Shown: piece by piece, positions 13,507 to 64,000 of the stretch
How the letters are laid out: each line of letters opens with the position of its first letter
Numbering within the stretch: the stretch's first letter is position 1
Assembly: GCA_001029675.1 (NCBI GenBank)
Contig: CP011210.1
Coordinates: 453,663 to 517,662 of the forward strand
DNA from: Candidatus Beckwithbacteria bacterium GW2011_GWC1_49_16
GTDB lineage: Bacteria; Patescibacteriota; Microgenomatia; UBA1400; CG1-02-47-37
DNA: 64,000 bases
Direction of reading: 5' to 3'
Translations under genes and position numbers: made by a program
Notes under the pieces: model-generated
The model's database searches: none
Seen by the model: only the letters and a program-made list of their open reading frames with translations
What the model was told of the DNA's origin: nothing

Positions 13507-16017
13507 ATGCAAAAAGAAGCAAAAGCACGGATCAAAATTAACAATCTTCTTCAGGAGTCCGGCTGGAGATTTTTTGATGATGAGCATGGAACGGCGAATA
13601 TAGTTCTAGAAAACAATGTCAAATTGACAAAGCAGGTAGTTGACGAATTAGGCAATGATTTTGATAAAACCAAGAACGGTTTCATAGATTTTCTTCTACT
13701 TGATGAAAAGTGTTTCCCTTATGCAGTGCTGGAAGCTAAATCTGAGGACAAAGATCCTCTAGATGGGAAAGAGCAGGCTAGAAGATACGCCCAGTCACAA
13801 AACGTTCGTTTTATTGTTCTTTCCAATGGTAATGTTCATTACTTCTGGGATTTAGAGCGAGGCAATCCATCTTTTATTTCCTCGTTTCCCACACAAGAAT
13901 CTCTCAAACATTTTGTTTCGTACAAGCCAGACTCTAAGAAATTGACAGAAGAAAAAGTTTCAGAAGATTACATAGCTTTAACTCAAAATCCTACATACCA
14001 AAAAGATCCTCGCTGGCAAGATGAGGTACTTAAACACGATCAAATTCAAGAACAGGATTTGAAGTTTCTACGCCCATATCAACTTAGGGCCATAACTGCT
14101 TTGCAAGAATCTGCCCAAAATGGCAATGACCGTTATCTTTTTGAAATGGCAACTGGTACCGGTAAGACTCTAACCTGTGCCGCCGTTATCAAGCTTTTCC
14201 TGAAAACTGGCAATGCCAAACGAATTCTCTTTTTAGTTGACCGTATTGAGTTGGAAGATCAGGCGGCCAAGAATTTCAAAAAATATTTGGCTAAAGATTT
14301 CACCAGCGTTATTTATAAAGAAAATCGTGATGATTGGCGTAAAGCTGAAATTGTGGTTTCGACTGTTCAAAGCCTTTCAACTAATAATAAATATCAGAAG
14401 TTATTTAATCCTACCGATTTTGATTTAATTATCTCTGACGAGGCACACCGTTCAATTGGTGGTAATAGTAGAGCTGTCTTTGAGTATTTCGTGGGTTACA
14501 AGCTAGGACTTACGGCTACGCCTAAAAACTACCTGAAAGGTATTGATCCAAATCAGCTTAATGCTCGTGATCCTCGGGCTTGGGAAAAACGTCAACTTCT
14601 AGATACCTATAAGACTTTTGGTTGTGAAACAGGAGAACCAACCTTCCGCTATAGTCTTCTTGACGGTGTCAAAGAAGGTTTTCTGGTCAACCCAATAGTT
14701 GCTGATGCCAGAACGGAGATTACTACACAACTCCTTTCTGATGAAGGGTATTCTCTTTTAGTTGATACAGAAGAAGGCAAAGAGGAACAAGTTTTTTATC
14801 AATCAGATTTTGAGCGAAAGTTTTTCTCTGACAAAACTAATCTAATTTTTTGTGAGACTTTCTTAAAGAATGCCTTGATGGATCAAATCTCTGGAGAGGT
14901 TGGCAAAAGCATTATTTACTGTGTGAGTCAAAAACATGCCAGTAAAATTACACAGCTTCTAAATCAGCTCGCTGATAGTTACTGGCCAGGAAAATATAAT
15001 TCCGATTTTGCTGTGCAGGTAACTTCTAATATTCCTGATGCTCAGCAATTCACAATAGGCTTTGCTAATAACAACCTTAATGGTCACACGCCTTGGCTGG
15101 AAGGTTATAAGTCCAGCAAAACTAGAGTTTGCGTGACGGTGGGTATGATGACTACTGGCTATGATTGCCAAGATATATTAAATCTTTGTTTAATGCGGCC
15201 AATTTTTTCCCCAACAGATTTCATTCAGATCAAAGGACGTGGTACACGAAAATACGCCTTTACCTTTGAAAATCGTGAGAATGGTGAAATTGAGAAAGTC
15301 AGGGTTGATAAAGAAAAATTCAAATTATTTGATTTCTTTGCTAACTGTGAGTATTTCGAAGAGAAATATAACTATGATGAAATTCTAAAAATTCCTAAGA
15401 CAATTTCGGGCACAGGACCAGGCGGAGAACCTACGGTTAATATTGATGTGACCATTGGTATCCCAGATCCTCTCAAAACATTCCAAGAAAAAGCGATTGG
15501 TTTACAAGGAATGAAAGTAGATCGCAAGATTTTTGAAAAGTTTGAGGAAACGGTTAAGGCAGATTCTTTCATCAAAGAAAAATACGAAGCTGGCGATATG
15601 CAGGCAGTTGAGGATTATGTGAAGACTGAGGTTTTTGATAAACCTGAAGATTATTTCAATTTAGACAAGCTTCGTAAATCAGTCAAGGTTGACCGTCGGC
15701 TTTCCCTGGGAGAAATAATGGATAAGATTTTTGGGCGGTTAGATAAATTTAAAGATAAAGATGAACTTTTAGAGGAAGAGTTTGAAAAGTTTATCTCAAT
15801 TTACAAGCCAGATAGTAAGTACTACTACCCAATAAAGAATTTCCTCAAAGCTTATATTACTGATAACGAGATTAGAGAAATTGTAGAAACAAAGGAATAC
15901 GGTCGGTTTGCAACAAACCCAAAAGTATCACTAGTAGACTTTAAGGCCTTGAACGGGTACCGTGACGTCGTGCCAGAGTATGTAAAGGACTACGTATCAG
16001 TTAATACGTATATGTAA
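13507..16017 (+). CDS. hsdR: type I restriction enzyme R subunit (short form)
   Basis: 836 aa. The N-terminus is an HsdR_N-type PD-(D/E)xK domain (IDFLLLDEKCFPYAVLEAKS). SF2 helicase motifs follow: GTGKT (Walker A), DLIISDEAHRS (DEAH), and TTGYDCQ motif VI. Confidence 0.8.
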   Translation: MQKEAKARIKINNLLQESGWRFFDDEHGTANIVLENNVKLTKQVVDELGNDFDKTKNGFIDFLLLDEKCFPYAVLEAKSEDKDPLDGKEQARRYAQSQNVRFIVLSNGNVHYFWDLERGNPSFISSFPTQESLKHFVSYKPDSKKLTEEKVSEDYIALTQNPTYQKDPRWQDEVLKHDQIQEQDLKFLRPYQLRAITALQESAQNGNDRYLFEMATGTGKTLTCAAVIKLFLKTGNAKRILFLVDRIELEDQAAKNFKKYLAKDFTSVIYKENRDDWRKAEIVVSTVQSLSTNNKYQKLFNPTDFDLIISDEAHRSIGGNSRAVFEYFVGYKLGLTATPKNYLKGIDPNQLNARDPRAWEKRQLLDTYKTFGCETGEPTFRYSLLDGVKEGFLVNPIVADARTEITTQLLSDEGYSLLVDTEEGKEEQVFYQSDFERKFFSDKTNLIFCETFLKNALMDQISGEVGKSIIYCVSQKHASKITQLLNQLADSYWPGKYNSDFAVQVTSNIPDAQQFTIGFANNNLNGHTPWLEGYKSSKTRVCVTVGMMTTGYDCQDILNLCLMRPIFSPTDFIQIKGRGTRKYAFTFENRENGEIEKVRVDKEKFKLFDFFANCEYFEEKYNYDEILKIPKTISGTGPGGEPTVNIDVTIGIPDPLKTFQEKAIGLQGMKVDRKIFEKFEETVKADSFIKEKYEAGDMQAVEDYVKTEVFDKPEDYFNLDKLRKSVKVDRRLSLGEIMDKIFGRLDKFKDKDELLEEEFEKFISIYKPDSKYYYPIKNFLKAYITDNEIREIVETKEYGRFATNPKVSLVDFKALNGYRDVVPEYVKDYVSVNTYM

Positions 16018-16022
16018 ATATT

Positions 16023-19000
16023 ATGTTAACTCAAGAAACAAAACGAAAAATAGATTCAGCCAGAGATATCCTGGTTGGTAAAGTTCCTGATCCTAAAGCT
16101 CAAGTTGAACAAATTACAACAGCCATGATCTATAAATTCATGGATGATATGGATAAAGATGCTGTGGAACTTGGAGGCAAAGCTCGCTTCTTTACTAATG
16201 GATTTGAAAAATATGCTTGGAGCAAACTTTTAGATTCTAGATTGGGTGGACACGAACGATTAGACCTTTACGCTGAAGCCATAGTACAGATGTCCAGTAA
16301 TCCCCATATTCCCCAATTATTTAGGGATATTTTTAAGGACGCATTTCTACCATATCGTAGTCCGGAAACATTGAGCTTATTCCTTAAGGAGATCAACAGT
16401 TTTACATACGATCATAGTGAGGATTTAGGTGATGCTTTTGAGTATCTACTTTCTATCATGGGTTCCCAAGGAGATGCTGGGCAGTTTCGTACTCCACGTC
16501 ACATAATCGATTTTATAGTAGCTGTAGTTGATCCCAAAAAAGACGATTCAATTTTGGACCCTGCTTGTGGAACTGCTGGATTTTTAATCTCTGCATATAA
16601 ACACATTCTCAAACAACACGATGGTAGGGATGATCCGAAACATAAAGAAAAACCGTTAACACCTGACGACAAAAAGCGATTAATGAACAATCTTTTCGGC
16701 TACGATATTAGTCCTGACATGGTTAAGCTCTCCAAAGTAAACATGTACCTGCATGGCTTTGCTGAACCCAAGATTTTTGAATATGACACTCTTTCTAGCG
16801 ATGAAAAATGGGACGAGACATATGACGTAATTATGGCAAACCCACCATTTATGACTCCAAAAGGCGGCATACGCCCACACAAGCGGTTCAGCGTACAAGC
16901 AAATCGTGCCGAAGTGCTGTTTGTGGATTATATTAAAGAACACCTACGGCCGAATGGTCGAGCGGGAATTATTGTACCTGAGGGGATCATTTTTCAGTCA
17001 GGCAATGCATATAAACAACTCCGTAAAATGTTAGTTGAAGATGGTCTGTTTGCGGTAGTTTCATTACCTAATGGAATATTCAATCCTTACTCTGGGGTAA
17101 AGACAAGTATTTTGTTTTTTGATAATGTGTTAGCAAAAAGAACAAATGAAATATTGTTCGTAAAAATTGACAGCGATGGATTTGACCTCGGAGCTCAAAG
17201 AAGGAAAATTGAAAGTAATGACCTCACTGCCGCCCTGATAATTTTGAAGAAATATATAGAGGACCCCAACACTACTCTCCTAATCGAAGTAAAAAACTTA
17301 GCCACCTTGGTTTCAAAAACAAGAATTTCTGAGAAGGGTGATTATAACTTGAGTAGTGATGAATACAAACAAACCGAAGTAATAAGCAACAAGAGATGGC
17401 CAATGAAGGAATTGGGAAGTTTATTCGAAATGATAAACGGGAGAGCATTTAAAAAAGAAGAATGGAAAACCAACGGAACGCCCATTATCCGAATAGCAAA
17501 TCTCAATGACAATAATGCTGAATTCAATTATTTTGAAGGAAATTGTGATGATAAAATTATTGTCAAAAATGGCGACCTACTTTTTTCCTGGTCAGGAACT
17601 CGTGGCACTTCATTCGGCCCACATATATGGAATAGAGGCAAGGGTGTTCTTAATCAACACATATATAAATTTCAACCCTTACAAGGAGATATAGATATTG
17701 CTTTTGCTTATCTTGTTATAAAAATAATTGTTCCCGAGATCGAAGCCCAAGCTCATGGTGCTGGGGGTCTGGTACATATTACGAAAGAAAAACTTAAACA
17801 TTTTAGAATTCCTGTTCCACCACTTCCTGTTCAAAAGCAAATAGTTGAACAAATTGAAGGTTATCAAAAGATCATTGAGGGAGCAAAACAAGTTGTAAAA
17901 AATTGGAAACCAATAACTGATATCAATCCTGATTGGGAAACAGCACTGATCCAGGATCTTTGTACTTTGGTGCGTGGTAGTTCACCTAGGCCTAAAGGAG
18001 ATAAACGGTATTACGATGGAAAAATCCCCAGACTGATGGTCTCAGACGTAACTAGAGATGGCATGTATACAACTCCCCAAACTGATTCGCTTACAGAAGA
18101 AGGATCTAAGCTTAGTCGTCCAATGAAAAAGGGTGAAGTTGTAATGGCTGTAAGCGGTAATCCAGGGTTGCCAACAATTCTTACAGTTGACGCATGTATC
18201 CATGACGGTTTTGTCGGATTTAGAAAGCTGTCCAGTAAAATAATTCCAGAATTTCTATATTTTATACTTTTGCGCCAAAAGGATGAAAATAACTCTCGAT
18301 CAGTTGGTGCAGTATTTAAAAATCTAACTACAGACCAAATAAAGAAGTTTAAGATTCCTGTCCCCCCTATCAATATCCAACTTGAATTAGTTGAACAAAT
18401 AACCCAAGAGCGTCAGGTTGTTGGTGCCAATGAAGAAATCATCAGAGAGTATGAGGCTAAAATTCAGAACGAGATAAAGGATGTTAATGATGGAAAAGCA
18501 CACTCTCCCCTAAGTAAGAATCAAAATGAACTAATTAAACAGCTTAAGGACGACTTTGAGTCAATTGAGTCAGAAGTTATTAGGATGATGGGCAACAAGG
18601 AGATATTCAAAGAGATTATTGAGATCTCTAAAAGAAATAGCCAGATAAATAAGGGTAACTCCCTGTGGGACTTTCTAAAAGAAAGTTATGTTGCACTAAT
18701 GGTGTCTGCGGTTTGTAGGCAAATTGATACAGACGAACGTTCGTCTAGCTTGGTAAATCTTTTAAGAACAATTCTTTTTAACCCGACAGTTATCCAGAGC
18801 TTAAACAAGGACTGGTATAGCGAACAATATCATCGCGATAACGACATCTTTCCAGGTTTCATGGAAGGAATCGGGAAGGGTGATTTTGAGGAACACTTTG
18901 GTTCAAAAGAATATGTAGATCCAGCTATCGTTTACATGGATCTAAAGAAGCTAGAGGAAGATACAAAAGAAATAAAGAAATACCGCAATAAAAGAATTGC

Positions 19001-19184
19001 CCATTTTGATAAAAAGGAATCACTTTTCAAAGCAAATTATGATGATTTGCATAAAGCAGTAGAAACTGTACGATCAATCGCAAGTAAATATTACTTACTG
19101 CTTAAACAGGGTGGCAATGATCTTATTCCGTCTGATCAAACCGATTGGCAGGAGATACTAACAATTCCCTGGATCAAAAAATAA
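16023..19184 (+). CDS. hsdMS: type I R-M HsdM-HsdS fusion with a C-terminal HEPN/Abi-like domain
   Basis: 1053 aa. The N-terminus is an N6-adenine MTase (DPACGTAGFL motif I; MANPPF motif IV). Two HsdS target-recognition domains follow (LGSLFEMINGRAFKKEEW...NQHIYKF; LCTLVRGSSPRP...FILLRQK) around a central conserved helix. The extra C-terminal domain of about 250 aa contains RNKRIAHFD (R-x5-H). Confidence 0.8.
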   Translation: MLTQETKRKIDSARDILVGKVPDPKAQVEQITTAMIYKFMDDMDKDAVELGGKARFFTNGFEKYAWSKLLDSRLGGHERLDLYAEAIVQMSSNPHIPQLFRDIFKDAFLPYRSPETLSLFLKEINSFTYDHSEDLGDAFEYLLSIMGSQGDAGQFRTPRHIIDFIVAVVDPKKDDSILDPACGTAGFLISAYKHILKQHDGRDDPKHKEKPLTPDDKKRLMNNLFGYDISPDMVKLSKVNMYLHGFAEPKIFEYDTLSSDEKWDETYDVIMANPPFMTPKGGIRPHKRFSVQANRAEVLFVDYIKEHLRPNGRAGIIVPEGIIFQSGNAYKQLRKMLVEDGLFAVVSLPNGIFNPYSGVKTSILFFDNVLAKRTNEILFVKIDSDGFDLGAQRRKIESNDLTAALIILKKYIEDPNTTLLIEVKNLATLVSKTRISEKGDYNLSSDEYKQTEVISNKRWPMKELGSLFEMINGRAFKKEEWKTNGTPIIRIANLNDNNAEFNYFEGNCDDKIIVKNGDLLFSWSGTRGTSFGPHIWNRGKGVLNQHIYKFQPLQGDIDIAFAYLVIKIIVPEIEAQAHGAGGLVHITKEKLKHFRIPVPPLPVQKQIVEQIEGYQKIIEGAKQVVKNWKPITDINPDWETALIQDLCTLVRGSSPRPKGDKRYYDGKIPRLMVSDVTRDGMYTTPQTDSLTEEGSKLSRPMKKGEVVMAVSGNPGLPTILTVDACIHDGFVGFRKLSSKIIPEFLYFILLRQKDENNSRSVGAVFKNLTTDQIKKFKIPVPPINIQLELVEQITQERQVVGANEEIIREYEAKIQNEIKDVNDGKAHSPLSKNQNELIKQLKDDFESIESEVIRMMGNKEIFKEIIEISKRNSQINKGNSLWDFLKESYVALMVSAVCRQIDTDERSSSLVNLLRTILFNPTVIQSLNKDWYSEQYHRDNDIFPGFMEGIGKGDFEEHFGSKEYVDPAIVYMDLKKLEEDTKEIKKYRNKRIAHFDKKESLFKANYDDLHKAVETVRSIASKYYLLLKQGGNDLIPSDQTDWQEILTIPWIKK

Positions 19185-19185
19185 T

Positions 19186-19924: not shown

Positions 19925-21280
19925 TTGTACCCTGAAATGAGTACAACATACAACCAAAATACGACGATAGAGCCACCAAAAATCGAATATTGCCTCTATG
20001 CACGAAAATCTTCGGAATCTGATGAACGTCAGGCAATGTCCATCGATTCTCAAATCGACGAAATGCTGACTCTGGCTAAGAGAGATAATCTCAAAATTAA
20101 GGAGGTTAAGAAAGAAAGTCATTCAGCCAAAATGTCTGGCTCCAGGCCAGTGTTTACTCAACTTCTTCAAGAACTACGCCAAAAGAAATTTAATGGGATT
20201 CTCACTTGGGCTCCTGACAGATTAAGTAGAAATGCTGGCGATTTGGGATCTGTAGTTGATCTTATGGATCAGGGAAAGCTAATAAAAATTCAAACCTACT
20301 CACAGAGCTTCTCGAATAGCCCAAACGAGAAATTCTTACTCATGATTCTCTGCTCTCAAGCAAAGCTTGAAAACGACAACAAAGGTCTAAATGTCCAACG
20401 AGGACTACGAACTAAGTGTGCGATGGGCTGGAGACCCAGCATAGCCCCCGCAGGATACCTTAATCAGGCTGGCGATGGTCATAAGGATGAACTCATCATT
20501 CTCGATCCCGAACGATCATCTTTCATTGCTCAAATGTTCGAAAGAGTTGGGCATCAAGGCCATAGTGGTCGAGCGATTAAGAATTGGCTTGATAGGATAG
20601 GATTCACAACCAGATTAGGAAACAAGATGCCACTAAGCAAAGTCTACTCAACACTTAATAACCCCTTTTACTATGGAGAATTTGAATTCCCAGTCGGCAG
20701 TGGAACTTGGTATCAAGGAAAACATAAACCCTTGGTTACAAAAGAATTATTCGACAAGGTTCAAGAAGTCCTCATGGTTCCACCCAAAAGTTATCACAAC
20801 AAGATATTTCCATTTAAGAGTATCTTTCGGTGTGGGGGTTGCGGAGGTGGAGTAACGGCTGAAGAAAAAATCAGAAAATTAAAACACGGCGGGTATGCCA
20901 AACATACCTATTATCACTGCGGCAGATCTCTCAATTATGAATGTGACGAGCCATATATTACAGAAGATGACTTAGTAAAACAGTTAATTGCTAATATCGA
21001 TAAAATCAAATTTAATCATACGGGGGTAACAAGAAAAATTCAGGAAGATATTGAACGGTACCACAGACTCAAAACTCAAGTACTTCATCAGGAATTTATA
21101 GATGGACACTTAGCTGAATTTAACAGAATTCCCCAGACTTCAGCTGATAAAAATGAAATGACCAAAAACTATCTATTACACATCTTGCAGATCGGAACAG
21201 CTGAGGAGCGACAGGAAGCTCTCTCATTCATTAAAACAAAATTTATTCTGTCAAAAAGAGCAATAACAATACAAAAATAG
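19925..21280 (+). CDS. large serine recombinase (integrase type)
   Basis: 451 aa. It has a resolvase catalytic N-domain (YCLYARKSSESDERQAMSIDSQ), a recombinase domain, and a zinc ribbon (CGGCGG...HCGRS...C). It lies next to the tRNA-Glu 3' end. Confidence 0.85.
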   Translation: MYPEMSTTYNQNTTIEPPKIEYCLYARKSSESDERQAMSIDSQIDEMLTLAKRDNLKIKEVKKESHSAKMSGSRPVFTQLLQELRQKKFNGILTWAPDRLSRNAGDLGSVVDLMDQGKLIKIQTYSQSFSNSPNEKFLLMILCSQAKLENDNKGLNVQRGLRTKCAMGWRPSIAPAGYLNQAGDGHKDELIILDPERSSFIAQMFERVGHQGHSGRAIKNWLDRIGFTTRLGNKMPLSKVYSTLNNPFYYGEFEFPVGSGTWYQGKHKPLVTKELFDKVQEVLMVPPKSYHNKIFPFKSIFRCGGCGGGVTAEEKIRKLKHGGYAKHTYYHCGRSLNYECDEPYITEDDLVKQLIANIDKIKFNHTGVTRKIQEDIERYHRLKTQVLHQEFIDGHLAEFNRIPQTSADKNEMTKNYLLHILQIGTAEERQEALSFIKTKFILSKRAITIQK

Positions 21281-21628: not shown

Positions 21629-21736
21629 GCAAACTTCAAGTATTTTATCAAATAATTGATGCTACCAGCAAATGGGAAATTTTACTTTTAAAACCTATCG
21701 GAATTCAAGACGATCGTTGCGGGCTGGGAGAGGTTA

Positions 21737-22000: not shown

Positions 22001-22078
22001 AGTAAACTTTTTTGGATTGTCGAATATTTAGGTTGAGTCCTCTGGCTGTTTCATCCTTGTATGACAAACTAATTTCTT

Positions 22079-23413: not shown

Positions 23414-23523
23414 TAGACGTATTATAGGTCATTTAATAGGGAAAGCAATCCTTACAGGGATAAACCTTGAAGGTTATGAAGGTTAAGCAGATGGGAAATT
23501 ATAGTTTTAAAACCTATCAGAAT

Positions 23524-55652: not shown

Positions 55653-56660
55653 TTAAGATTTCCAAAGCCTAAGGTAATCATCAACCACTTTGTCCCAAGT
55701 TTGCCCTTGGGCAAAACGATAAGCAGCCTCGATCATTTTGTCGATTTTTCTGGGTTTATTCCTGGCGCTTTCAAACTGGCTCACCAGCTGGCTGGCCGAG
55801 CCGGCAATAAAGATGAATTTAGCTCCGGGGAAAAGAGTCAGGTAGTCTTTTTTCAAGGGATTTTGGTAGAGGGCGAAAACCGGGCGGCGGCGGGCCATGG
55901 CCTCAAGGATGGTCAGATAAGACGAGGCAAAGATATAAGCGGGCCGGTTTAAAAACTTACCAATATCTTTGACCAGGCCGGTAACCTGGCCTAATTTCTC
56001 GGCCTGACCGCGAAGGCTGCCGTCGCCGACAAAAGTGATTTTTAAATTGTACCGGGCTTTGATTTGTTTTAAAGCCTTCAAATATTCACTTACTGCCAAG
56101 TCGGGTTCAAGCCTGCCGATAAAAATAACCTCCCTTAAGCCCCTTCCCCCAATAAAGTTCTGATGTATCGATACATCGATACCGCCGTAGGTGACCGCGC
56201 CAGCTTTGGTGCCATAGTGATTGATAAGATAATCGCCGACGCAGATGTTGCCGGAAGATAAACTCTCCCAGATTTTTCTGGCCAGTTTGTTTTTGGCCGG
56301 CACCGGAAACTTACCCTCCCAACCGTGGAAGGTGGTAAAGACCGGTTTTTTGGGATACAGAAAACTAAAGGGCAAGTACCAAAAGAAAACGTCGTGGCAG
56401 TGGACCAAGTCGGCTTTTTGGATTAGACTCCGCCGGCGCCAAAGATTTAACCATATCCCCCATTTTGAGTTTGAATAGGGGAGTCTGACGATTTTTATGC
56501 CCCGGTGGCTGGCAATTTCGGCCAGTCCCCTTTTATGTTTCAAGGTGACTACGGTTATTTGGTGGCCTTTTTCCGCCAACCTGGCGCTCACCTCCTCTAC
56601 GTGCTTCTCCACCCCGCCGATGTGGGGGTAGAAAAGCCTGGTGAGCATGAGTATGGTCAT
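55653..56660 (-). CDS. family 4 (GT-B) glycosyltransferase
   Basis: 335 aa. The N-terminus reads MLTRLFYPHIGGVEKHVEEVSARLAEKGHQITVVT. Confidence 0.7.
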   Translation of the reverse strand: MTILMLTRLFYPHIGGVEKHVEEVSARLAEKGHQITVVTLKHKRGLAEIASHRGIKIVRLPYSNSKWGIWLNLWRRRSLIQKADLVHCHDVFFWYLPFSFLYPKKPVFTTFHGWEGKFPVPAKNKLARKIWESLSSGNICVGDYLINHYGTKAGAVTYGGIDVSIHQNFIGGRGLREVIFIGRLEPDLAVSEYLKALKQIKARYNLKITFVGDGSLRGQAEKLGQVTGLVKDIGKFLNRPAYIFASSYLTILEAMARRRPVFALYQNPLKKDYLTLFPGAKFIFIAGSASQLVSQFESARNKPRKIDKMIEAAYRFAQGQTWDKVVDDYLRLWKS

Positions 56661-57477: not shown

Positions 57478-60081
57478 GTGTACCTTCAAGGAGCAATGTT
57501 TCTTCGTCTGCCCAGGGTATTGGTGTTTTTCTTAGGTTTTCTTTTTGTCCTCTTAATATTTCCAAATAAAAGCAGCGCTGCAGTTTTATTTCAGGATAAT
57601 TTTGATGACGGAAATGCCAATGGGTGGATAGTTGCAAGAAACATGCAATGGGGAAATAACTTATTGCCATGCTATAAAGAAGGTCAACCGACAGACTGGG
57701 CTGTTCAGGACGGAAAATATGGGATTTATATAGTCGGACAGAGTTGTGTTACTGAAACAATGCCAGCAAGCTGGGATAATTCGTGGAACAACTACATTTT
57801 TGAAGCTGACGTTATTTTCGTCAGAGGAACTGATGGGAATATCGCTTTCAGATATTCGGGAAGTCCTAATTTCGATTGGTATGGCTACCATTTTCAAATC
57901 GACTCAAATCCAAGCTTTTCAAAAGTTACTCTTCAAAGAGTCTTAAACACAAGCATTTATTCAGATAACTCAGTTTTCTATCTGGAACGCAACACCCCTT
58001 ATCACCTAAAAATTATTGTTAACAATGAAGAGATAAAACTATTTATAAATGATAATTTGGCTCTAGATTACCCAGATGCTGGAGGCAGATTCACCACAGG
58101 CAGAATCGCATTACAAGCCAGCGTTGGAGGTGATCCAGAATCACAAGTCTGGTTTGACAATGTTGTGGTCAGCTCAATCGGTGACGAGCCAGAGGAAAAA
58201 GATCCGGTTGTGTTGCTGCCAGGGTTTGGAGCAAGCTGGGACAAGACGGCCCTGGTGATAGGAGGTCCTGGCGATGACTGGACTAAAACTCCGTTCGTCA
58301 ACGTCTACGACAACTTGAGAAATACTTTTATCGACAACGCCGGCTATACCGAAGGCGATGATTACTTTGAGTTTTACTACGACTGGCGCAAGCCGTTGAC
58401 CGATTTAGCCGATGACTTTGATGACTTTCTTCAAACAACGGTGCTCACGGATAAGCCGGAAGACACTAAAGTCGACCTAGTCGGTCACAGCCTTGGAGGA
58501 ATGGTGGCCAGAGTCTTTGCCCAAGAACATGGCATAGATAAACTAGACGAGATCGTCACCACTGGTTCACCCCATGAGGGAGCCATTCCAGCCTGGCTGG
58601 CTTGGTCGGGAGCGGAGGTGGGCGAACGCTGGTCGTGGCAGTGGTTAGCGCTGCAGCTTTATCTTCAAATCCACAACTTGGGTTACGCCTCACCAGTGAC
58701 TGCGGTGCGGGGTTTGACTCCGGGGCTTAAAGATTTGCTGCCTATTTTTGACTTTGCCAAAGACGAGGGCGACTCGGTAATTCCTTATACCAGTTTGACC
58801 GGCATCAATGACTATTTGGACAGCCTTGAATCAAGCCTATCCACAGAAGTTAAAGGTGTCTTAAACACCATTGCCGGCCGTGAAGACGACCCTGATCGGA
58901 ATACGGTTGAATGGTTGACTCTGGGAGAGAGAAGCTGGATCGACCAACTTTTGGGTAGGTGGCCTGACGGCAAACCGGTGGCCAAAGAAACCACAGACGC
59001 TGGTGACTTAACTGTGTTGCAAAAAAGCGCCACAGTCAGCGGCGTTGCCTCGACGGCCGTGGTCAATACCACTCACGTTAGTTTGCCGCAAACAAAGGAA
59101 GGCATCCAAGCAATTCTTGATGCTTTAGACTTATCGGGGGTAGCTCCGGCAACTGGCGTCGATCCTCTGCCGCGAAACCCATCCTTGGTTTTCTTTCTCC
59201 ACTCGCCAGCCGAATTGACCGTAACTGCGCCCGACGAATCTCAAGCTGGCTTCGGCGTCGCCTCGCCGATGGCCAACTCCCTTTACAGCCCGGAAGACAA
59301 ACTTTTGGTTATTTACAACGCCTTGGCCGGAATTTATGGAGTGGAAATTTTGGGAACCGGCACCGGTCCATACCACTTGGAAGTCGGCCAGTTGACCGAA
59401 GCGGGTGAATTTTTCAACACCTTAAGCGAAACTACTTCTGCCGGAGAAACCGACACTTTTCAACTTGACTTTAACCCCGAAGACCCTTTGGCTCAACCGG
59501 TCGTCGATGAAACCGGAAAAACCCAACTACTCTTGGCCAAAGCCAGGCTGGAAGAACTCAAAGACGCCGTTAACCGGCGCTGGTTTAAAAACTTTATCGA
59601 CCAAATGATTCGCTTAATTGACCGGGCCGTGGAGAAAATCGATCAGGGCAGATTCCTCTGGGCCCAAGTCTATGTGCAGAGAACCTTGCTGACCGACTAC
59701 TATCTGCGCTTGTTTTCAGACAGACACTGGAGTTTTTGGGGGCTTACTTCCCAAGAGCAAATCTTGGCTCATAATTTGGCCGCAGAGGCGGGTCAATACT
59801 TGGAAGAGGCTTTTGTGATTACTTTTGACTTAAGCGGTCGCAGGTTAACTTCCCGGCAAGTGCAAAGTTATATCAGAGAGACGGAGAGGTTAAAGGCCCG
59901 GGTCGACCGCCGACTGGAAAGCTACGGTCAAGAGAATCAACTTTTGGGTGAAACCTACGAGCTGGCAGAGGCCAGTCTTGCCGGAGCCAAGGCTGATTTT
60001 GACTCGGGGAACTTAAGTAGCGCTTACGCCCAGCTTTTGGCCGCCAAAATTCTCTATCAGGAAGCCTTAGGCCTGCTGTAG
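57478..60081 (+). CDS. secreted protein with an N-terminal concanavalin/LamG-like lectin domain and an alpha/beta-hydrolase (lipase/PGAP1-like) domain
   Basis: 867 aa. It has a signal peptide and a jelly-roll-like domain (FQDNFDDGNANGWIV...RIALQASVGGDPESQVWFDNVVVS). A nucleophile elbow, GHSLGGMVAR, follows. Confidence 0.6.
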   Translation: MYLQGAMFLRLPRVLVFFLGFLFVLLIFPNKSSAAVLFQDNFDDGNANGWIVARNMQWGNNLLPCYKEGQPTDWAVQDGKYGIYIVGQSCVTETMPASWDNSWNNYIFEADVIFVRGTDGNIAFRYSGSPNFDWYGYHFQIDSNPSFSKVTLQRVLNTSIYSDNSVFYLERNTPYHLKIIVNNEEIKLFINDNLALDYPDAGGRFTTGRIALQASVGGDPESQVWFDNVVVSSIGDEPEEKDPVVLLPGFGASWDKTALVIGGPGDDWTKTPFVNVYDNLRNTFIDNAGYTEGDDYFEFYYDWRKPLTDLADDFDDFLQTTVLTDKPEDTKVDLVGHSLGGMVARVFAQEHGIDKLDEIVTTGSPHEGAIPAWLAWSGAEVGERWSWQWLALQLYLQIHNLGYASPVTAVRGLTPGLKDLLPIFDFAKDEGDSVIPYTSLTGINDYLDSLESSLSTEVKGVLNTIAGREDDPDRNTVEWLTLGERSWIDQLLGRWPDGKPVAKETTDAGDLTVLQKSATVSGVASTAVVNTTHVSLPQTKEGIQAILDALDLSGVAPATGVDPLPRNPSLVFFLHSPAELTVTAPDESQAGFGVASPMANSLYSPEDKLLVIYNALAGIYGVEILGTGTGPYHLEVGQLTEAGEFFNTLSETTSAGETDTFQLDFNPEDPLAQPVVDETGKTQLLLAKARLEELKDAVNRRWFKNFIDQMIRLIDRAVEKIDQGRFLWAQVYVQRTLLTDYYLRLFSDRHWSFWGLTSQEQILAHNLAAEAGQYLEEAFVITFDLSGRRLTSRQVQSYIRETERLKARVDRRLESYGQENQLLGETYELAEASLAGAKADFDSGNLSSAYAQLLAAKILYQEALGLL

Positions 60082-60629
60082 TTGGCACCAGGAAAGGTGC
60101 CGGCAAATCTACTTATCTCTATGCCTGTATCGTCGAAAACATCGACCATGTATCTTTTATTGCCCAGCTCAACCGTAGAAATTAATTCCTTAGGTGCCAA
60201 AGGTTGAAGCCCAAACTTTTCAATGATCTCCTCTAAGGTTCTGATTTCAGTTGAGGGTAATTGAGAAAACTCTAACGTATATGAAGGCTCTCCCCTTTCA
60301 AACACCAAAACTCCTTTATGTAAGGTTATGGGCGCCAGCACGGGAATTGATAAATTAGTTAATTGACTTAAAGCCATTAAAGTTTCGTAGGCTCTCTCGG
60401 CGTAACCTCGAGAGTTTTCGTTTTCCGCAGGGTAAAGTTTCATAAATAGTCCAACTGAATCACTTGATGCCGACAACCTCAAAGTGAACTCATAGAGTCG
60501 GCTCTCCAGCTCCCAATCCCCTTTGGGAGAAAAGTCTATCGGAAACCCTTCGCCGTTAAACTCAAGCATTCCTAGGAAATTTTCCGCCTGGATGGTTGCG
60601 TATTCAACAGAAACTTTTTCTCTGTCCAT
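60057..60629 (-). CDS. hypothetical protein
   Basis: 190-aa ORF convergent with the lipase gene. No motif. Confidence 0.4.
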   Translation of the reverse strand: MDREKVSVEYATIQAENFLGMLEFNGEGFPIDFSPKGDWELESRLYEFTLRLSASSDSVGLFMKLYPAENENSRGYAERAYETLMALSQLTNLSIPVLAPITLHKGVLVFERGEPSYTLEFSQLPSTEIRTLEEIIEKFGLQPLAPKELISTVELGNKRYMVDVFDDTGIEISRFAGTFPGANYSRPKAS

Positions 60630-60651
60630 GTTCGGTATTATATCAGGTCAG

Positions 60652-62725
60652 TTTAAATTAGCCTCTTAATCGCTTCTAGGTAAACGTGTTTGTTTTTGCG
60701 GGCGGGGAAGTCCTGGGAGATTTGATTGCGTAGAGAAGTTTTTAGTCACTTTCTTAACTTTTCAAGGAGATCTCTTAAATAAACTTCTAGTAAAAATTCT
60801 GACTCTGGTATATATTTTTGCTCATACTCTTGAAAAACTCCGTAACTTTCAAGTAAATATAAATTTTCAATCGTTAATTGTATTTGTTTTATTAATTGGA
60901 TTCGTTGGTCCAATAAAATATCCTCTATTTGACGAAAGGGATTAAAGCCCAATGTTGGCTGGTCGCAAATTTTAAGAAGGAACTCAGAAACTTTTTGAAA
61001 ACTTTTTCCTACTTCTTCAAAGTCTGGAGTAGTGGTCAGCTCTTTACCCAAGGAGTCTAATTCTGAAAACCATCTAATTAAGTTGCTATTATCATAGGGT
61101 GGTGGTTTTTGGTTAATTTCTCTCAGAATTTCTACCCTACCTCTATTTTTCGTGTTAGTTATCTTAAATTCTTGATCCCAAATAGCAATATAGGTGCCTT
61201 TTTTTGCTGATATGGTCCCCAGAATATCTTGTGGGTTACCGTCGTATTCTTTAACAACCACACCCAGAAATAAAATGTCATTTCTTGACGTTAATGTGGT
61301 GAAATGGTCTCCTCCTCTGCCGCCGGTATGGTCAACTCTAGGCGCGAGAATCATTCCAGGTATTCGTTCGTCTCTGACATACTGCAACTCGACAATCGCA
61401 GCTGCATTACTAAAATGACCAATGCTAACTTTTCTTAGACCAAAAAACCCACTAAAAACCGTGTCTGGAAGGATCAAGAGATAATTTGAGTGTTGCTGAT
61501 TGAATTTGAGTAATATGTCCATATCGTCTAGGCTAAATCCGCCTGCACCTACTTGAATTATCCCCCGTCCTTTCCGCGAATCAATGTTAACAACATCTGT
61601 TCCTTCGAAAAGAACGGTTCCTTCTTGGGGTTCGAGTTCTAAATCTTTTACGGGGGTTCTATTTTCAGGCGAATGCTGAACAACGATGCCTGGACTTTCT
61701 GATTGATCAATAGCAAACTCCCAGTAAGATGAGGTTTTGTCTGTTAATGTTTTTTGCCAGGCCCTGATAAGCTCTACTAGTTTAGGAACTTGAGGGTATA
61801 TTGATTTTTCAATTTCGAAACTTCGTCTAATAGTAATAGTTTCTAATTGGGTCGTATTTAGATTAACCACGTCAACTTTTGTTATCGACTGAAGAGCTTT
61901 AAAGATTGTTTTTATATCAGAAATTTTTTCTTTTTTTAAAACAATTGCCTCGCTTGTCTCTACTGCTTTAGTTCCAAGACCTATTACTAGACGTAGGATG
62001 GGCTCGTCATTAACTAAAGTTAGGACTCCAGATAAAGACGGCATAAAGTAATCCCCAAACCTATCCCCGACTACCGGATGAATTAGCATTCCCATTCCGG
62101 AATTTGTCCGCTCTAAATTAACAACTTTATCAGATGAAAAAAAGCTAGCAAAAATGCTTTTCTGATTCTCCTCCAGAACAGCTAAATCTTCCTGAGTGTC
62201 TCCTGTCTTGATATAAAACGTAGTGTAATATATTCCCGTTCCACCTCTTTCGTCTGTGGCGGAAGACCTTATAGCTATAGGAATTCCTTTGGGTATAAAA
62301 GACAAAATTTCTTGGTTTATTTCTGATAAATGTGGAGGAATTTCCCCTTGTTCAATTTCAAAATCTTGAGTTGAATTACGAAAATCGTTATACTGAATGA
62401 ACTCGTGAAAAAGTGACGACCCGATGCTAATCCCAGGTAGAACAGAAATCCCACTTAGATTTTGTTCATCCAAATTAATTAAATCTCTGGTTTTCAGGCC
62501 TGGATTGGAACCATAGCTAATCCACTCCTTACCGAATTGAGATTCAGTTGGCTTTTGGTTTTCTGACATACGGTCTTATAACTATTAATATAAGACCGTA
62601 TTTTATCATACGGGTGCTGAGCCTACTGGTTTAAGCACTAAGATGAGAACAAGCCTGACTTAAACTAACTTCTTAATCGCTTCCAAGTAAACGTGTTTGT
62701 TTTTGCGGGCGGGGAAGTCCTGGGG
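60652..62725. mobile_element. cargo cassette inserted at the 3' end of the uridine-kinase-like gene, bounded by ~65-bp imperfect direct repeats (60652-60717 and 62659-62725)
   Basis: The repeat is tt[a/c]aa[t/c]ta[g/a]c[c/t]TCTTAATCGCTTC[T/C]A[G/A]GTAAACGTGTTTGTTTTTGCGGGCGGGGAAGTCCTGGG. The relic copy still encodes ...ARKNKHVYLEAIKRLI-stop, against ...ARKNKHVYLEAIKKLV-stop in the live gene. The cargo is a single 607-aa gene and there is no recombinase. Confidence 0.55.
60746..62569 (-). CDS. hypothetical protein with a PPDK_N/PEP-synthase-like nucleotide-binding motif (cassette cargo)
   Basis: 607 aa. IPIAIRSSATDERGGTGIYYTTFYI resembles the V(A/R)VRSSATAED motif of PEP synthase and pyruvate phosphate dikinase ATP-grasp N-domains. 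The C-terminal 350 aa is unrecognised and the gene is AT-rich. Confidence 0.45.
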   Translation of the reverse strand: MSENQKPTESQFGKEWISYGSNPGLKTRDLINLDEQNLSGISVLPGISIGSSLFHEFIQYNDFRNSTQDFEIEQGEIPPHLSEINQEILSFIPKGIPIAIRSSATDERGGTGIYYTTFYIKTGDTQEDLAVLEENQKSIFASFFSSDKVVNLERTNSGMGMLIHPVVGDRFGDYFMPSLSGVLTLVNDEPILRLVIGLGTKAVETSEAIVLKKEKISDIKTIFKALQSITKVDVVNLNTTQLETITIRRSFEIEKSIYPQVPKLVELIRAWQKTLTDKTSSYWEFAIDQSESPGIVVQHSPENRTPVKDLELEPQEGTVLFEGTDVVNIDSRKGRGIIQVGAGGFSLDDMDILLKFNQQHSNYLLILPDTVFSGFFGLRKVSIGHFSNAAAIVELQYVRDERIPGMILAPRVDHTGGRGGDHFTTLTSRNDILFLGVVVKEYDGNPQDILGTISAKKGTYIAIWDQEFKITNTKNRGRVEILREINQKPPPYDNSNLIRWFSELDSLGKELTTTPDFEEVGKSFQKVSEFLLKICDQPTLGFNPFRQIEDILLDQRIQLIKQIQLTIENLYLLESYGVFQEYEQKYIPESEFLLEVYLRDLLEKLRK

Positions 62726-63511
62726 GGCTTCGACCTGGAGGGAGTTGTCAAAAAGTATGGCTTTATCGGCCAGAGTCCCCTGGCGCAAAGCGTCAAGATA
62801 GGGTTTGACGAACTGGAGATAACCGGGTTTGGTGGTGGAGGCGATTTGGTCTTGAGAGTCTTTTTTAGTGCGGCCGCGTTCTTGGACGTCGCGGTTGATG
62901 CGGCGAGCCACACAGATTTCCCAGGGAGCATCGACGCCGATAAGCAAGTCTGCCTCGTCTTTTAAAGCGTGGGCGGCCATGATGCCGGAAACGACGATAA
63001 TCGATTTGGGTGCGAGCTCGGGGCGACCCCGATCGACCCGGCTATGAATGGAAAAGTCGTACTCGGGCAGGGTAACGGTATGACCCTGGCGGAGGAGCGA
63101 CAGGTGAAGCCTTTGCAAGTCCCAGTCGACTGAGTTGGGGTGGTCGTAGTTGTTGGAATATATCCCTGGTTGGCTGTCGCCGAACAGCTTGCCGGTAGGG
63201 CCGTAGTAAAGGTCGGAAGGCAGGTGGACGACGGACTCTGCCAGCTCTTGCTGGATGACTTCGATGACCGTGTCTTTTCCCGAGCCGCTGGGGCCGAAGA
63301 TGACCACGGTTTTAGGCGTTTGGGCTAGCGAGCTTTTGGGACCAGATTGCCTAAGATAACCCCAGCGGGGGTCGTTCCTGGCGGCGGTTAAAAATTCCAG
63401 CGCTTGCTGGCTTTCGACTTTGATAATCAGGCCTTCGGGGTCGCCGATGGCCATCCAGGGCATGATCTTTGCCTTAGGGACTTTTTGGAGCAGGGCTTTT
63501 AAGTCGGGCAT
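62660..63511 (-). CDS. udk: uridine kinase / phosphoribulokinase-family P-loop kinase with an N-terminal extension
   Basis: 283 aa. P-loop VVIFGPSGSGKDTVIEV, then IGVDAPWEICVARRINRDVQERGRT (an Udk-like R..RD..ERGR motif). Confidence 0.65.
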   Translation of the reverse strand: MPDLKALLQKVPKAKIMPWMAIGDPEGLIIKVESQQALEFLTAARNDPRWGYLRQSGPKSSLAQTPKTVVIFGPSGSGKDTVIEVIQQELAESVVHLPSDLYYGPTGKLFGDSQPGIYSNNYDHPNSVDWDLQRLHLSLLRQGHTVTLPEYDFSIHSRVDRGRPELAPKSIIVVSGIMAAHALKDEADLLIGVDAPWEICVARRINRDVQERGRTKKDSQDQIASTTKPGYLQFVKPYLDALRQGTLADKAILFDNSLQVEAPQDFPARKNKHVYLEAIKKLV

Positions 63512-63569
63512 TGTCTAGAACAATATAGCATATCTAGTGGTCAATTTGACTATAGGGTATAATTCACAC

Positions 63570-64000
63570 ATGGAGCCGAAACCGCTTCCCGATAGCCAAA
63601 GTCTAAATCTGCCATACAGCCAAGAGATCGAAACGGCTGGCATCAAGATTGCCTCGATTGTTCAATCTTACCGAAAAGGTCAGATAGAAACCAAAGAAGC
63701 CAGATCACAACTATCAAGCTGGCTGATGAAAAAATTTACCTATGAAGAATTTCGTGAAGCTGTAAAGGCAGCCTTTGGCAGAAACATAACAGACCCAGAC
63801 ATTTTACCGGTTAACCAATCGCGGAACTGGTCAGCTAAGGAGTTAGCTTCTTCGCTCAGGCGGCCAGTAGTTTTTGGCGGTACCGGTCTAGCGGTTGTGT
63901 TCGTAGACATGTTTGATTCTGGCATATCAGCGGCACATAAATATCCGATGAATTATGACTTGTTGGTAAGTTACTTTAAAAGACATCCCGATAAACTATT
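63570..64000 (+). CDS. hypothetical protein, 5' partial ORF running off the window end
   Basis: ATG at 63570 with an open frame to the window end (MEPKPLPDSQSLNLPYSQEIE...). It is not in the track because no stop lies within the window. Confidence 0.35.
   Translation, partial: MEPKPLPDSQSLNLPYSQEIETAGIKIASIVQSYRKGQIETKEARSQLSSWLMKKFTYEEFREAVKAAFGRNITDPDILPVNQSRNWSAKELASSLRRPVVFGGTGLAVVFVDMFDSGISAAHKYPMNYDLLVSYFKRHPDKL

What the first reader, a model, noticed from the sequence alone, without database searches (positions are those of the whole stretch)
60652..62725. Second integrase-less cassette with the same architecture at the udk-like 3' end, carrying a PPDK_N-like 607-aa protein
A ~65-bp repeat sits at the 3' end of the uridine-kinase-like gene and recurs 2 kb away, after a single AT-rich 607-aa gene. 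The relic copy retains the Udk C-terminal reading frame (KNKHVYLEAIKRLI-stop) with synonymous changes, implying past selection on both copies (attL/attR-like). The cargo protein has an RSSAT motif like PEP synthase/PPDK ATP-grasp N-domains (also found in rifampin phosphotransferases) but lacks the recognisable phospho-His swivel motif. Its function is unclear. It could be a nucleotide- or antibiotic-modifying enzyme or a defence protein.
Basis: seen in the sequence. Interest (0 to 1): 0.75.

Follow-up and report, generated by a model that had tools for sequence, protein, structure and literature searches.

The report
Accessory dikinase gene beside udk
A Candidatus Beckwithbacteria (CPR) genome carries a low-GC accessory gene just after its uridine-kinase-like gene, bracketed by a duplicated copy of that gene's last 65 bases. 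The gene encodes an uncharacterised relative of rifampin phosphotransferase and PEP synthase whose substrate is unknown.

Summary
A 65-nt direct repeat (60/65 identical) lies at 62660-62724, the 3' end of a udk-like gene, and at 60653-60717. It brackets one low-GC 607-aa gene, and the displaced copy still reads ...QDFPARKNKHVYLEAIKRLI-stop.

Three points change the picture.
- A sister lineage (~91% identical udk, same synteny) lacks a larger segment of about 2,585 bp (window ~60081-62665). That segment also contains the relic and an orphan 190-aa ORF. The presence/absence boundaries therefore do not coincide with the repeats, and insertion here cannot be told apart from deletion there.
- The family is accessory and sits in many different contexts. 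In one relative it occupies the L19/tRNA-Lys slot that holds the other tail-duplication cassette in this window.

No recombinase lies in or next to the segment, and no known defence, phage or RNA family matches. Best reading: a fixed, one-gene insertion made by single-crossover recombination at the udk tail, carrying a dikinase of unknown substrate. Interest is moderate.

The parts
62660..63511 (-). udk-like gene (283 aa), a P-loop uridine kinase/PRK family member with an N-terminal extension. Its last 65 nt form repeat copy 1.
   Evidence: PF00485 at 6e-25 and NF004018 at 5.7e-40, below its cut-off. The C-terminal motif PARxNKxVYLExIxxL is conserved in orthologues.
62660..62724 (-). Repeat copy 1: the udk tail attached to the gene (QDFPARKNKHVYLEAIKKLV-stop).
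   Evidence: It shares AAGAAGTTA with the sister-lineage allele.
62570..62659 (-). 90-nt spacer between the udk stop and the cargo start. It is strongly structured, with a 13-bp perfect hairpin (62568-62601) that contains the cargo AUG, and a TGaTAAAAT -10-like element upstream.
   Evidence: Fold z = -5.6. Hairpin seen. No Rfam match. The promoter reading is inference from the sequence.
60746..62569 (-). Cargo gene of 607 aa. Domains: ATP-grasp (PPDK_N, about residues 30-305), swivel phospho-His-type domain (about 315-485, invariant His422), and a family-specific helical tail (494-606).
   Evidence: GC is 37.2%.
60653..60717 (-). Repeat copy 2: the displaced udk tail (relic), in frame with the cargo stop codon, reading QDFPARKNKHVYLEAIKRLI-stop.
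60630..60652 (-). 23-nt spacer with an extended -10 (TGaTATAAT) lying 7 nt before the ATG of the 190-aa ORF. This suggests a near-leaderless transcript.
   Evidence: Read directly from the sequence. The function is inferred.
60057..60629 (-). Orphan 190-aa ORF, also absent from the sister lineage. Its 3' end overlaps the convergent lipase-like gene by 25 nt.
   Evidence: No Pfam, NCBIfam, PADLOC or PHROG hit. No homologues found. Not found next to other family members. GC is 43.5%.
60081..62665 (.). The segment present here and absent in the sister lineage (about 2,585 bp, GC 38.6%).
   Evidence: blastn breakpoints: window 63533..62666 matches L060 1022..1890, and window 60080..58183 matches L060 1889..3786.
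57478..60081 (+). Convergent lipase-like / alpha-beta-hydrolase gene that forms the far boundary of the variable segment.
   Evidence: PF06439, PF07819 and PF12697. Syntenic in the sister lineage.

Best explanation
**What it is.** Window ~60081-62665 is a lineage-specific, low-GC accessory segment wedged between the udk-like gene and a convergent lipase-like gene in a Candidatus Beckwithbacteria genome.

**How it most likely got there.** Its udk-proximal 2.0 kb is a one-gene insertion. It most likely entered by a single-crossover (Campbell-type) recombination between the last ~65 nt of udk and a matching udk-tail copy carried on a small circular or otherwise foreign DNA. That event left one functional tail on udk. 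It displaced a second tail 2,007 bp downstream, directly in front of the promoter and ATG of an orphan 190-aa ORF. The enzyme responsible is unknown: it could be RecA acting on 65 nt of homology, or a recombinase acting in trans. The insertion is now fixed in this population and is probably immobile.

**What the cargo does.** The cargo is a histidine-dependent dikinase of the PEP synthase / PPDK / rifampin phosphotransferase superfamily. The N-terminal ATP-grasp domain binds ATP, and the beta-phosphate passes to the invariant His422 on a swivel domain. By analogy with RPH and HpeHI, it is then delivered to an acceptor, releasing AMP and Pi. No known acceptor domain is present, whether a PEP/pyruvate TIM barrel or a rifampin-binding domain. 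The acceptor is therefore unknown. It may be bound by the family-specific helical tail or by a partner.

**Shown:** the repeat, its coordinates, the absence of the segment from the sister lineage, the domain folds, the invariant residues, and the varied genomic contexts of the family.

**Inferred:** the Campbell-type mechanism, the direction of the event, phosphotransfer through His422, and any physiological role.
For: **Repeat and relic.**

**Mosaic pattern.** There are 38 identical nt followed by 5 clustered mismatches. In the three-way alignment the attached tail equals the relic in the core, but equals the sister in the distal 9 nt.

**Foreign composition.** GC is 37.2% in the cargo against 55.6% in udk.

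**Fixed in the population.** All 24 and 23 contigs read that carry the identical udk or 190-aa protein also carry the insertion.

**Absent elsewhere.** The segment is missing from the sister lineage, which has identical synteny. The gene is also missing from beside udk in more distant relatives.

**Varied contexts of the family**:
- the L19/tRNA-Lys-Glu slot (L002, L004, L029, L039), which holds a different tail-duplication cassette in this window
- upstream of fusA
- next to HicAB
- next to an OLD-like ATPase plus a Fic/RhuM-like protein
- next to a VirB4-like ATPase
- next to a large serine recombinase

The names for these neighbours (HicAB, OLD-like ATPase, Fic/RhuM-like, VirB4-like ATPase, and the L046 recombinase) are my reading of the translations, not the result of a domain search.

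**Enzyme class.**
- PF01326 covers the full-length domain.
- Foldseek E is 5e-10 to RPH.
- His422 is invariant in 63/63 members, R101 and S102 in 62/63, and Q298 in 63/63.
- His422 sits at the N-terminus of a helix, followed by ILFLG, which parallels GGxTSHAAIVARExGIPAVVG.

**Mechanism of RPH and HpeHI.** PMC4844700 and PMC12167813.
Against: **On the insertion model**
- No recombinase lies in or near the segment, and no circular form or attP has been seen.
- The sister lineage's gap does not end at the repeats. It removes the relic and the 190-aa ORF as well, with only TA/TTA microhomology. The repeat-bounded unit has therefore never been seen present or absent on its own.
- The sister could equally be a deletion derivative of a genome like this one.
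- No other family locus shows a comparable bracket. L051 has only a 40-nt and a 21-nt match in non-collinear order.
- The mismatch clustering is only modestly significant (P 0.01-0.06), and gene conversion between the two tails could create the identical run.

**On the enzyme**
- The swivel domain has no sequence-profile match to PF00391 or to any PDB chain.
- I could not check residue by residue that His422 superposes on the catalytic His.
- The loop before His422 is modelled with low confidence (residues 400-427).
Confidence: 0.5

Rival explanations
1. Remnant of a larger, conventional integrative element. An integrase-encoding island once integrated site-specifically into the udk 3' end, giving attL and attR as the two tails. 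Reductive deletion then removed the integrase and most of the cargo, leaving the 607-aa gene.
For: Direct repeats that rebuild the 3' end of a target gene are the classic signature of integrase-mediated integration (established knowledge of genomic islands). CPR genomes are small and streamlined (established knowledge). The family gene lies beside a large serine recombinase in L046 (my reading of the translation). A serine recombinase also sits beside the other cassette in this window.
Against: Only 29 nt separate the cargo stop from the relic, and 90 nt separate the udk stop from the cargo start. Any deletion would have had to be almost perfectly flush on both sides. No integrase pseudogene fragment is visible among the ORFs. 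Large serine recombinases do not normally generate 65-bp direct repeats (established knowledge).
Confidence: 0.15
2. Not a mobile cassette at all. The tail duplication would be a by-product of illegitimate or homology-facilitated recombination during uptake of foreign DNA, or of local rearrangement. The present/absent difference with the sister lineage would reflect a 2.6-kb deletion in the sister. The similarity to the L19 site would be coincidental.
For: The sister junctions show only TA/TTA microhomology. The sister udk acquires a new QQA-stop tail encoded by the reverse complement of the lipase gene's end, as expected after a deletion that fuses two convergent genes. Divergence between the lineages is patchy: 99.85% identity in the glycosyltransferase gene, 90.7% in udk and 84.5% in the lipase gene. 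That indicates frequent homologous exchange. None of the other family loci tested has a comparable bracket.
Against: Two independent tail duplications of 65 and 69 nt occur in 64 kb. Each lies at the 3' end of a conserved gene and is followed by co-oriented low-GC cargo. The cargo family occupies the other slot in a relative. This is hard to put down to chance. Simple illegitimate insertion does not duplicate 65 nt.
Confidence: 0.25
3. Functional rival A. The cargo is a small-molecule (antibiotic or xenobiotic) phosphotransferase that confers resistance, as RPH does for rifamycins.
For: The best structural matches are RPH and HpeI. It is a single self-sufficient accessory gene that moves between genomes. 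RPH-like dikinases are described as a large unexplored group (PMC4844700).
Against: There is no rifampin-binding domain and no NCBIfam resistance model hit. At 607 aa it is much shorter than the 840-847-residue RPH chains. No acceptor pocket has been identified.
Confidence: 0.25
4. Functional rival B. The cargo is an anti-phage or anti-MGE defence effector, for example one that consumes ATP or phosphorylates a phage component once triggered.
For: The family member P0002 occupies the L19/tRNA slot. In this genome that slot carries a P-loop NTPase cassette, and it lies next to a type I R-M + HEPN/AbiU2 + recombinase island. Other members sit next to HicAB and next to an OLD-like ATPase plus Fic/RhuM (my reading of the translations).
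Against: There is no PADLOC or PHROGs hit, and no members were found on viral contigs. Many members lie among housekeeping genes such as enolase, IF-2 and ProRS (my reading of the translations). The case rests on association only.
Confidence: 0.15

Closest known systems
Rifampin phosphotransferase (RPH; PDB 5HV1/5HV6; PMC4844700)
   Different: There is no rifampin-binding domain of ~450 aa. The swivel domain follows the ATP-grasp directly and is itself followed by a ~115-aa helical tail, whereas in RPH the His domain is C-terminal. Sequence identity is 14-18%. No NCBIfam or Pfam model beyond a marginal PPDK_N hit recognises it.
Two-component small-molecule dikinases HpeHI / phenylphosphate-synthase type (PDB 9GOJ; PMC12167813)
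   Different: HpeHI splits the ATP-grasp and the swivel-plus-substrate domains into two proteins. Here the ATP-grasp and swivel are fused, and the substrate-binding domain of HpeH has no counterpart.
PEP synthase / pyruvate phosphate dikinase
   Different: There is no PEP/pyruvate-binding TIM barrel (PF02896) and no PF00391 sequence signature. The gene is an accessory, horizontally scattered gene rather than a core metabolic enzyme.
Genomic islands / integrative elements inserted in the 3' end of a gene (attL/attR direct repeats that rebuild the gene's end)
   Same: A direct repeat covers the last 20 codons plus the stop of the target gene, and the gene stays intact. The cargo is foreign in composition and absent from relatives.
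   Different: There is no integrase, only one gene between the repeats (2.0 kb), and no observed excised form. The natural absence polymorphism does not end at the repeats.
Recombinase-less cassettes mobilised in trans (integron gene cassettes, IMEX elements, cis-mobilisable elements). Comparison from my own knowledge.
   Same: The unit is a single ORF of similar size, co-oriented with the upstream gene, with no recombinase in cis.
   Different: No attC-like or dif-like site is shared between the two cassettes in the window. There is no IntI or attI. The recombination site mimics a protein-coding gene's tail.

Membership tests
PEP-utilising / dikinase superfamily (PEPS, PPDK, RPH) | PPDK_N-type ATP-grasp nucleotide-binding domain | tested here: met
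PEP-utilising / dikinase superfamily (PEPS, PPDK, RPH) | Sequence signature of the phospho-His mobile domain (PF00391 PEP-utilizers) | tested here: not met
   No PF00391 hit for any of 25 middle-domain sequences, even at E <= 10. No PEP-utilising chain appeared in a PDB profile search.
PEP-utilising / dikinase superfamily (PEPS, PPDK, RPH) | Swiveling beta/beta/alpha phospho-carrier fold bearing a conserved catalytic His | tested here: met
PEP-utilising / dikinase superfamily (PEPS, PPDK, RPH) | Phosphoryl transfer ATP to His to acceptor (biochemical activity) | not testable with these tools
   This needs an autophosphorylation assay, an H422A mutant and product analysis.
PEP synthase / PPDK proper | C-terminal PEP/pyruvate-binding TIM barrel (PF02896) | tested here: not met
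   No Pfam hit beyond PPDK_N. Residues 494-606 are predicted to be all-helical.
Rifampin phosphotransferase | Rifampin-binding domain between the ATP-grasp and a C-terminal His domain | tested here: not met
   The protein has 607 aa, against 840-847 residues for the RPH chains. The swivel domain follows the ATP-grasp directly. There is no NCBIfam hit.
Site-specific integrative element (genomic island) | Direct repeats (attL/attR) flanking the insert and rebuilding the target gene's end | tested here: met
   65 nt with 60/65 identical, and both copies keep the frame and the stop codon.
Site-specific integrative element (genomic island) | Integrase or recombinase encoded within or adjacent to the element | tested here: not met
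   The only ORFs between udk and the lipase-like gene are the 607-aa and 190-aa ORFs, and neither has a recombinase domain. The neighbours on the other side of udk, which are a 264-aa protein, S26 peptidase, ParB, L27 and L21 (L008), include no integrase or site-specific recombinase.
Site-specific integrative element (genomic island) | Empty site in relatives whose junction falls within the repeat | tested here: inconclusive
   The sister lineage lacks the region. Its left junction lies 6 nt inside repeat copy 1, but its right junction lies ~570 nt beyond the relic, at the lipase stop.
Site-specific integrative element (genomic island) | Excised circular form / attP | not testable with these tools
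   This needs read-level data or PCR across the predicted 2,007-bp circle junction.
Integron gene cassette | attC site at the cassette end, with IntI and attI nearby | tested here: not met
   No motif is shared between the two cassettes' ends. No tyrosine integrase was seen. The only recombinase in the window is a large serine recombinase at 19925..21280.
Known anti-phage defence systems | Match to a PADLOC model | tested here: not met
   No PADLOC hit for the 607-aa or the 190-aa protein. No PHROGs hit.

The most novel reading that the evidence does not exclude
CPR bacteria may possess a class of tiny (~2 kb), recombinase-less, single-gene cassettes. These would circulate as circles carrying a mimic of the last ~65 nt of a conserved gene (udk, rplS) and insert by single crossover at that gene's tail. 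They would be co-transcribed with the gene, or carry their own leaderless-type promoter. This would create exchangeable 'slots' that hold defence-type cargo. The ATP-grasp + swivel-His dikinase would be one such cargo and would act in phage or MGE defence, for example by triggered ATP consumption or by phosphorylating an invader component.
Probability: 0.12. Interest if true: 0.8.

Novelty: new variant of a known kind. Interest (0 to 1): 0.5.

Why it matters
**The enzyme.** RPH-type dikinases have been called a large unexplored enzyme group (PMC4844700). This family has about 60 full-length clusters at 50% identity and 1,462 representative proteins at E <= 0.001. It reduces the architecture to ATP-grasp plus swivel His with no recognisable acceptor domain. 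Finding its substrate would extend the known chemistry of the superfamily.

**Gene flow in CPR bacteria.** These organisms have ~1-Mb genomes, and little is known about how they gain and lose genes. Here there are two tail-duplication cassettes in 64 kb. One cargo family alternates between such slots in related genomes. A sister lineage also lacks the segment. Together these give a concrete, testable example of how accessory genes are slotted in behind conserved genes without a cis-encoded recombinase.

**Limits.** As it stands, both the mechanism and the function are inferred, so the finding is a useful lead rather than a discovery.

Tried and rejected
- **Species-representative genome scan with udk**. 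It returned only distant archaeal and Firmicute uridine kinases, so it gave no empty site.
- **Exact-protein look-ups of udk, the 190-aa ORF and P0001**. Every contig carries the insertion, so there is no polymorphism within the population.
- **Direct repeats around 24 other family loci**. None is comparable. L051's 40-nt and 21-nt matches are non-collinear and were not pursued.
- **Viral contigs**. No family members were found.
- **PADLOC, NCBIfam and PHROGs on the cargo and the 190-aa ORF**. No hits.
- **Sequence-profile test of the swivel domain against PDB and Pfam**. Negative, so the claim rests on fold and conservation.
- **AFDB fold search**. The library was unavailable.
- **A palindromic motif at the cassette-1 junction that recurs at 31137**. 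It lies in what reads as ordinary coding sequence and was rejected as a shared recombination site.
- **Extension of the relic beyond 65 nt**. 11/27 matches, not significant.
- **Rfam search of 59900-63700**. Only a sub-threshold chance hit.
- **Conserved partnership of the 190-aa ORF with the family**. Rejected.
- **Homologues of the 190-aa ORF**. None found.
- **Start-codon hairpins upstream of 15 other family members**. Only the closest relative (L002) has a weaker one, so this is not a family feature.
Full report

Yes. The repeat finder reports one 65-nt direct repeat at 60653-60717 and 62660-62724, with 60/65 identical and a start-to-start spacing of 2007 nt. A local blastn of the flanks gives E = 1.8e-23.

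Copy 1 is the last 20 codons plus the stop of a 283-aa gene on the minus strand (62660..63511). That gene belongs to the uridine kinase/PRK family: PF00485 at 6e-25, and uridine kinase NCBIfam models at 1e-37 to 1e-40, below their equivalog cut-offs.

Copy 2 translates in the same register to QDFPARKNKHVYLEAIKRLI-stop, against ...KKLV-stop for the gene. The five differences are three synonymous changes in two Leu codons plus K>R and V>I. All five lie in the 27 nt nearest the stop codon, and 38 identical nt follow.

The clustering is modestly unusual: P is about 0.01-0.02 for the terminal clustering and 0.06 for an identical run of 38 or more. The synonymous excess alone is not significant. Similarity does not continue beyond the 65 nt (11/27 matches, P = 0.06).

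A single 607-aa ORF (60746..62569, minus strand) lies between the copies. Its GC is 37.2%, against 55.6% for udk and 46.0% for the window.

**2. Where does the window come from, and is the insertion variable?**

The udk and cargo proteins are identical to entries AKM79311 and AKM79310 of a Candidatus Beckwithbacteria genome, on a contig of 1,049,888 bp. This is a CPR bacterium. Every contig read that encodes the identical udk or the identical downstream 190-aa protein has the same udk / 607 / 190 arrangement. The insertion is therefore fixed in this population.

The next udk orthologues outside the 90% cluster are only 41-51% identical. Where I looked (P0022, P0024), they have unrelated downstream genes and no PPDK_N gene beside udk. 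They do share the C-terminal motif PARxNKxVYLExIxxL, so the repeat covers a conserved part of the protein.

The 90% cluster of udk also contains a 285-aa variant, P0282. Its contigs (L060-L063) show the same synteny: S26 peptidase, a small ORF, udk, the convergent lipase-like gene, a methyltransferase and glycosyltransferases. In these contigs udk and the lipase-like gene overlap by 15 nt, and both the 607-aa gene and the 190-aa ORF are missing.

blastn places the breakpoints at window 62666 and 60080. The segment present here and absent there is about 2,585 bp with GC 38.6%. The sister's udk ends ...AAG AAG TTA | CAA CAA GCC TAA. Its last four codons are the reverse complement of the lipase gene's end. 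In our genome the homologous CTACAGCAGGCCTAAGG lies at the end of the 190-aa ORF. The junctions share only TA/TTA.

Two consequences follow. The cargo is truly accessory. However, the natural presence/absence difference does not end at the repeats, and its direction cannot be decided. Either two gains happened here, or one 2.6-kb deletion in the sister fused two convergent genes.

**3. The second cassette, and the cargo's other homes**

The window holds a second repeat pair: 69 nt, 86% identical, at 21667-21735 and 23486-23554. It covers the last 10 codons plus the stop of ribosomal protein L19 and 38 nt downstream of the stop. It brackets a 444-aa P-loop NTPase and an 87-aa ORF. The relic is followed by tRNA-Lys and tRNA-Glu.

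In another Beckwithbacteria genome, the closest named relative of the 607-aa protein is P0002 (47% identity). It sits exactly in the slot CTP synthase / L19 / [P0002] / tRNA-Lys / tRNA-Glu (also L029 and L039). No repeat of 25 nt or more is left there.

Other relatives lie upstream of fusA. Others lie next to HicAB, an OLD-like ATPase plus a Fic/RhuM-like protein, a VirB4-like ATPase, a large serine recombinase, enolase, IF-2 or ProRS. These neighbour names are my reading of the translations, not the result of a domain search.

None was found on viral contigs. This is the distribution of a horizontally moving accessory gene. The co-occurrence of two tail-duplication cassettes with a cargo family that alternates between such slots is the strongest argument that the architecture is not accidental.

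**4. What is the cargo?**

Pfam detects only PPDK_N, just above threshold but over the whole domain. PADLOC, NCBIfam and PHROGs give nothing.

A profile search of 1.84 billion representative proteins finds about 60 full-length clusters, 97 proteins at E <= 1e-30, 702 at E <= 1e-10 and 1,462 at E <= 0.001. Many of the weaker ones are ~500-aa proteins that match only profile positions ~15-400. These too carry PPDK_N or no annotation at all.

The family alignment shows strong conservation in the part with no annotation: HFSNAA..E.Q and DHTxGRGGxHFxxLxxRxDILFLG. The second motif parallels the swivel motif GGxTSHAAIVARExGIPAVVG, which I quote from my own knowledge. His422 is invariant in 63 of 63 members of at least 450 aa. 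In the model it lies at the N-terminus of a helix.

I conclude that the protein has an ATP-grasp domain, a divergent phospho-His-type swivel domain and a ~115-aa helical tail. The tail is absent from some relatives such as P0013-P0015. The protein has neither the PEP/pyruvate TIM barrel nor the rifampin-binding domain.

By analogy with RPH (PMC4844700) and HpeHI (PMC12167813), the likely chemistry is ATP + acceptor giving AMP + Pi + phospho-acceptor through His422. The acceptor is unknown.

**5. How did the structure arise?**

A single crossover between a udk tail on a circular or foreign DNA and the chromosomal udk tail yields exactly the observed topology:
- an intact udk with one tail
- the incoming DNA
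- a second tail joined to what was originally downstream

Immediately after the relic come TGaTATAAT and, 7 nt later, the ATG of the 190-aa ORF. This is compatible with the relic and the ORF having been the native downstream neighbourhood.

The three-way alignment is a mosaic. The attached tail and the relic share a 13-nt patch that differs from the sister at 7-9 positions, while the attached tail shares the distal AAGAAGTTA with the sister. This fits recombination. It could equally reflect gene conversion between the two tails, against a background of frequent inter-lineage exchange. That background is visible in the identity to the sister: 99.85% in the glycosyltransferase gene, 90.7% in udk and 84.5% in the lipase gene, with patchy mismatches within udk.

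There is no recombinase in the segment. The only one in the window is a large serine recombinase 40 kb away, in a type I R-M / HEPN-AbiU2 island beside the L19 cassette. That enzyme class does not normally leave 65-bp repeats (my own knowledge). I therefore rate the Campbell-type model as the best explanation but not a proven one. I keep two rivals: a decayed integrase-bearing island, and a non-mobile rearrangement combined with a deletion in the sister.

**6. Comparison with known systems, and novelty**

The cargo works like an RPH/PEPS-type dikinase. It fails the membership tests for PEPS/PPDK proper (no TIM barrel) and for RPH (no rifampin-binding domain). It is best described as an uncharacterised, minimal branch of that superfamily.

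The genomic architecture resembles integration into a gene's 3' end with attL/attR. It lacks the integrase, and no repeat-bounded empty site has been shown. It also resembles recombinase-less cassettes in size and orientation, but without any shared attC-like or dif-like site.

Overall this is a new variant of known kinds. It is interesting mainly as a lead on gene flux in CPR genomes and on an unexplored dikinase family. Neither function nor mobility has been demonstrated.

**7. Verdict**
- Observation: confirmed.
- Interest: 0.5.
- Most novel reading still open: a recombinase-less, gene-tail-mimicking cassette system in CPR bacteria that carries defence-type cargo. I put this at about 12% probability. 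It would deserve about 0.8 interest if true.

Noticed in passing
window 13507-21280: A defence-type island. It contains type I R-M HsdR (13507..16017), an HsdM-HsdS fusion protein with a C-terminal HEPN/AbiU2 domain (16023..19184), an unknown 215-aa ORF, and a large serine recombinase (19925..21280). It abuts tRNA-Glu and tRNA-Lys.
   Followed up: partly
window 21667-23554: The other tail-duplication cassette. A 69-nt repeat (86% identical) of the L19 3' end plus 38 nt downstream of the stop brackets a 444-aa P-loop NTPase (weak AAA_14/AAA_16/nSTAND3 hits) and an 87-aa ORF. The relic keeps the frame and a stop codon (TSPSPQRSS-stop against TSPVSQRSS-stop), as I read it by hand from the sequences.
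   Followed up: partly
window 62568-62601: A perfect 13-bp hairpin whose 3' arm contains the AUG of the 607-aa gene. The 126-nt region folds with z = -5.6. The closest relative, P0002 in L002, has a weaker hairpin that also occludes its AUG (z = -2.5), and other family members have none. This may be translational control. There is no Rfam match.
   Followed up: partly
window 60746-60748 and 60653-60745: The cargo's TGA stop codon is in frame with the 30-codon relic udk tail. This is probably coincidence (a 1 in 3 chance), but read-through would append a udk-like tail.
   Followed up: no
window 60630-60652: An extended -10 element (TGaTATAAT) lies 7 nt upstream of the ATG of the orphan 190-aa ORF, which suggests a leaderless or near-leaderless transcript.
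   Followed up: no
window 56000-56660 compared with L060 5226-5886: The glycosyltransferase gene is 99.85% identical to the sister lineage, whereas udk is 90.7% and the lipase-like gene 84.5% identical. This indicates recent homologous exchange between the lineages.
   Followed up: no
L004 7449-7658: A perfect 55-nt repeat at a spacing of 155 nt that contains the 3' end of tRNA-Glu, downstream of P0002. It reads as a 155-nt tandem duplication and is absent from L002.
   Followed up: no
L036 5001-8390: Two PPDK_N-family paralogues (611 aa and 524 aa) lie in convergent orientation. By my reading of the translations, they sit next to a VirB4-like ATPase and an M23 peptidase.
   Followed up: no
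L039 4992-6684: A family member in the L19 slot is split into two ORFs of 266 and 314 aa. This may be a pseudogene or an assembly frameshift.
   Followed up: no
L051 1887-1925 / 3781-3820 and 1991-2010 / 3755-3775: A distant family member (30% identity) is flanked by a 40-nt (90%) match and a 21-nt (95%) match in non-collinear order. Their nature was not examined.
   Followed up: no
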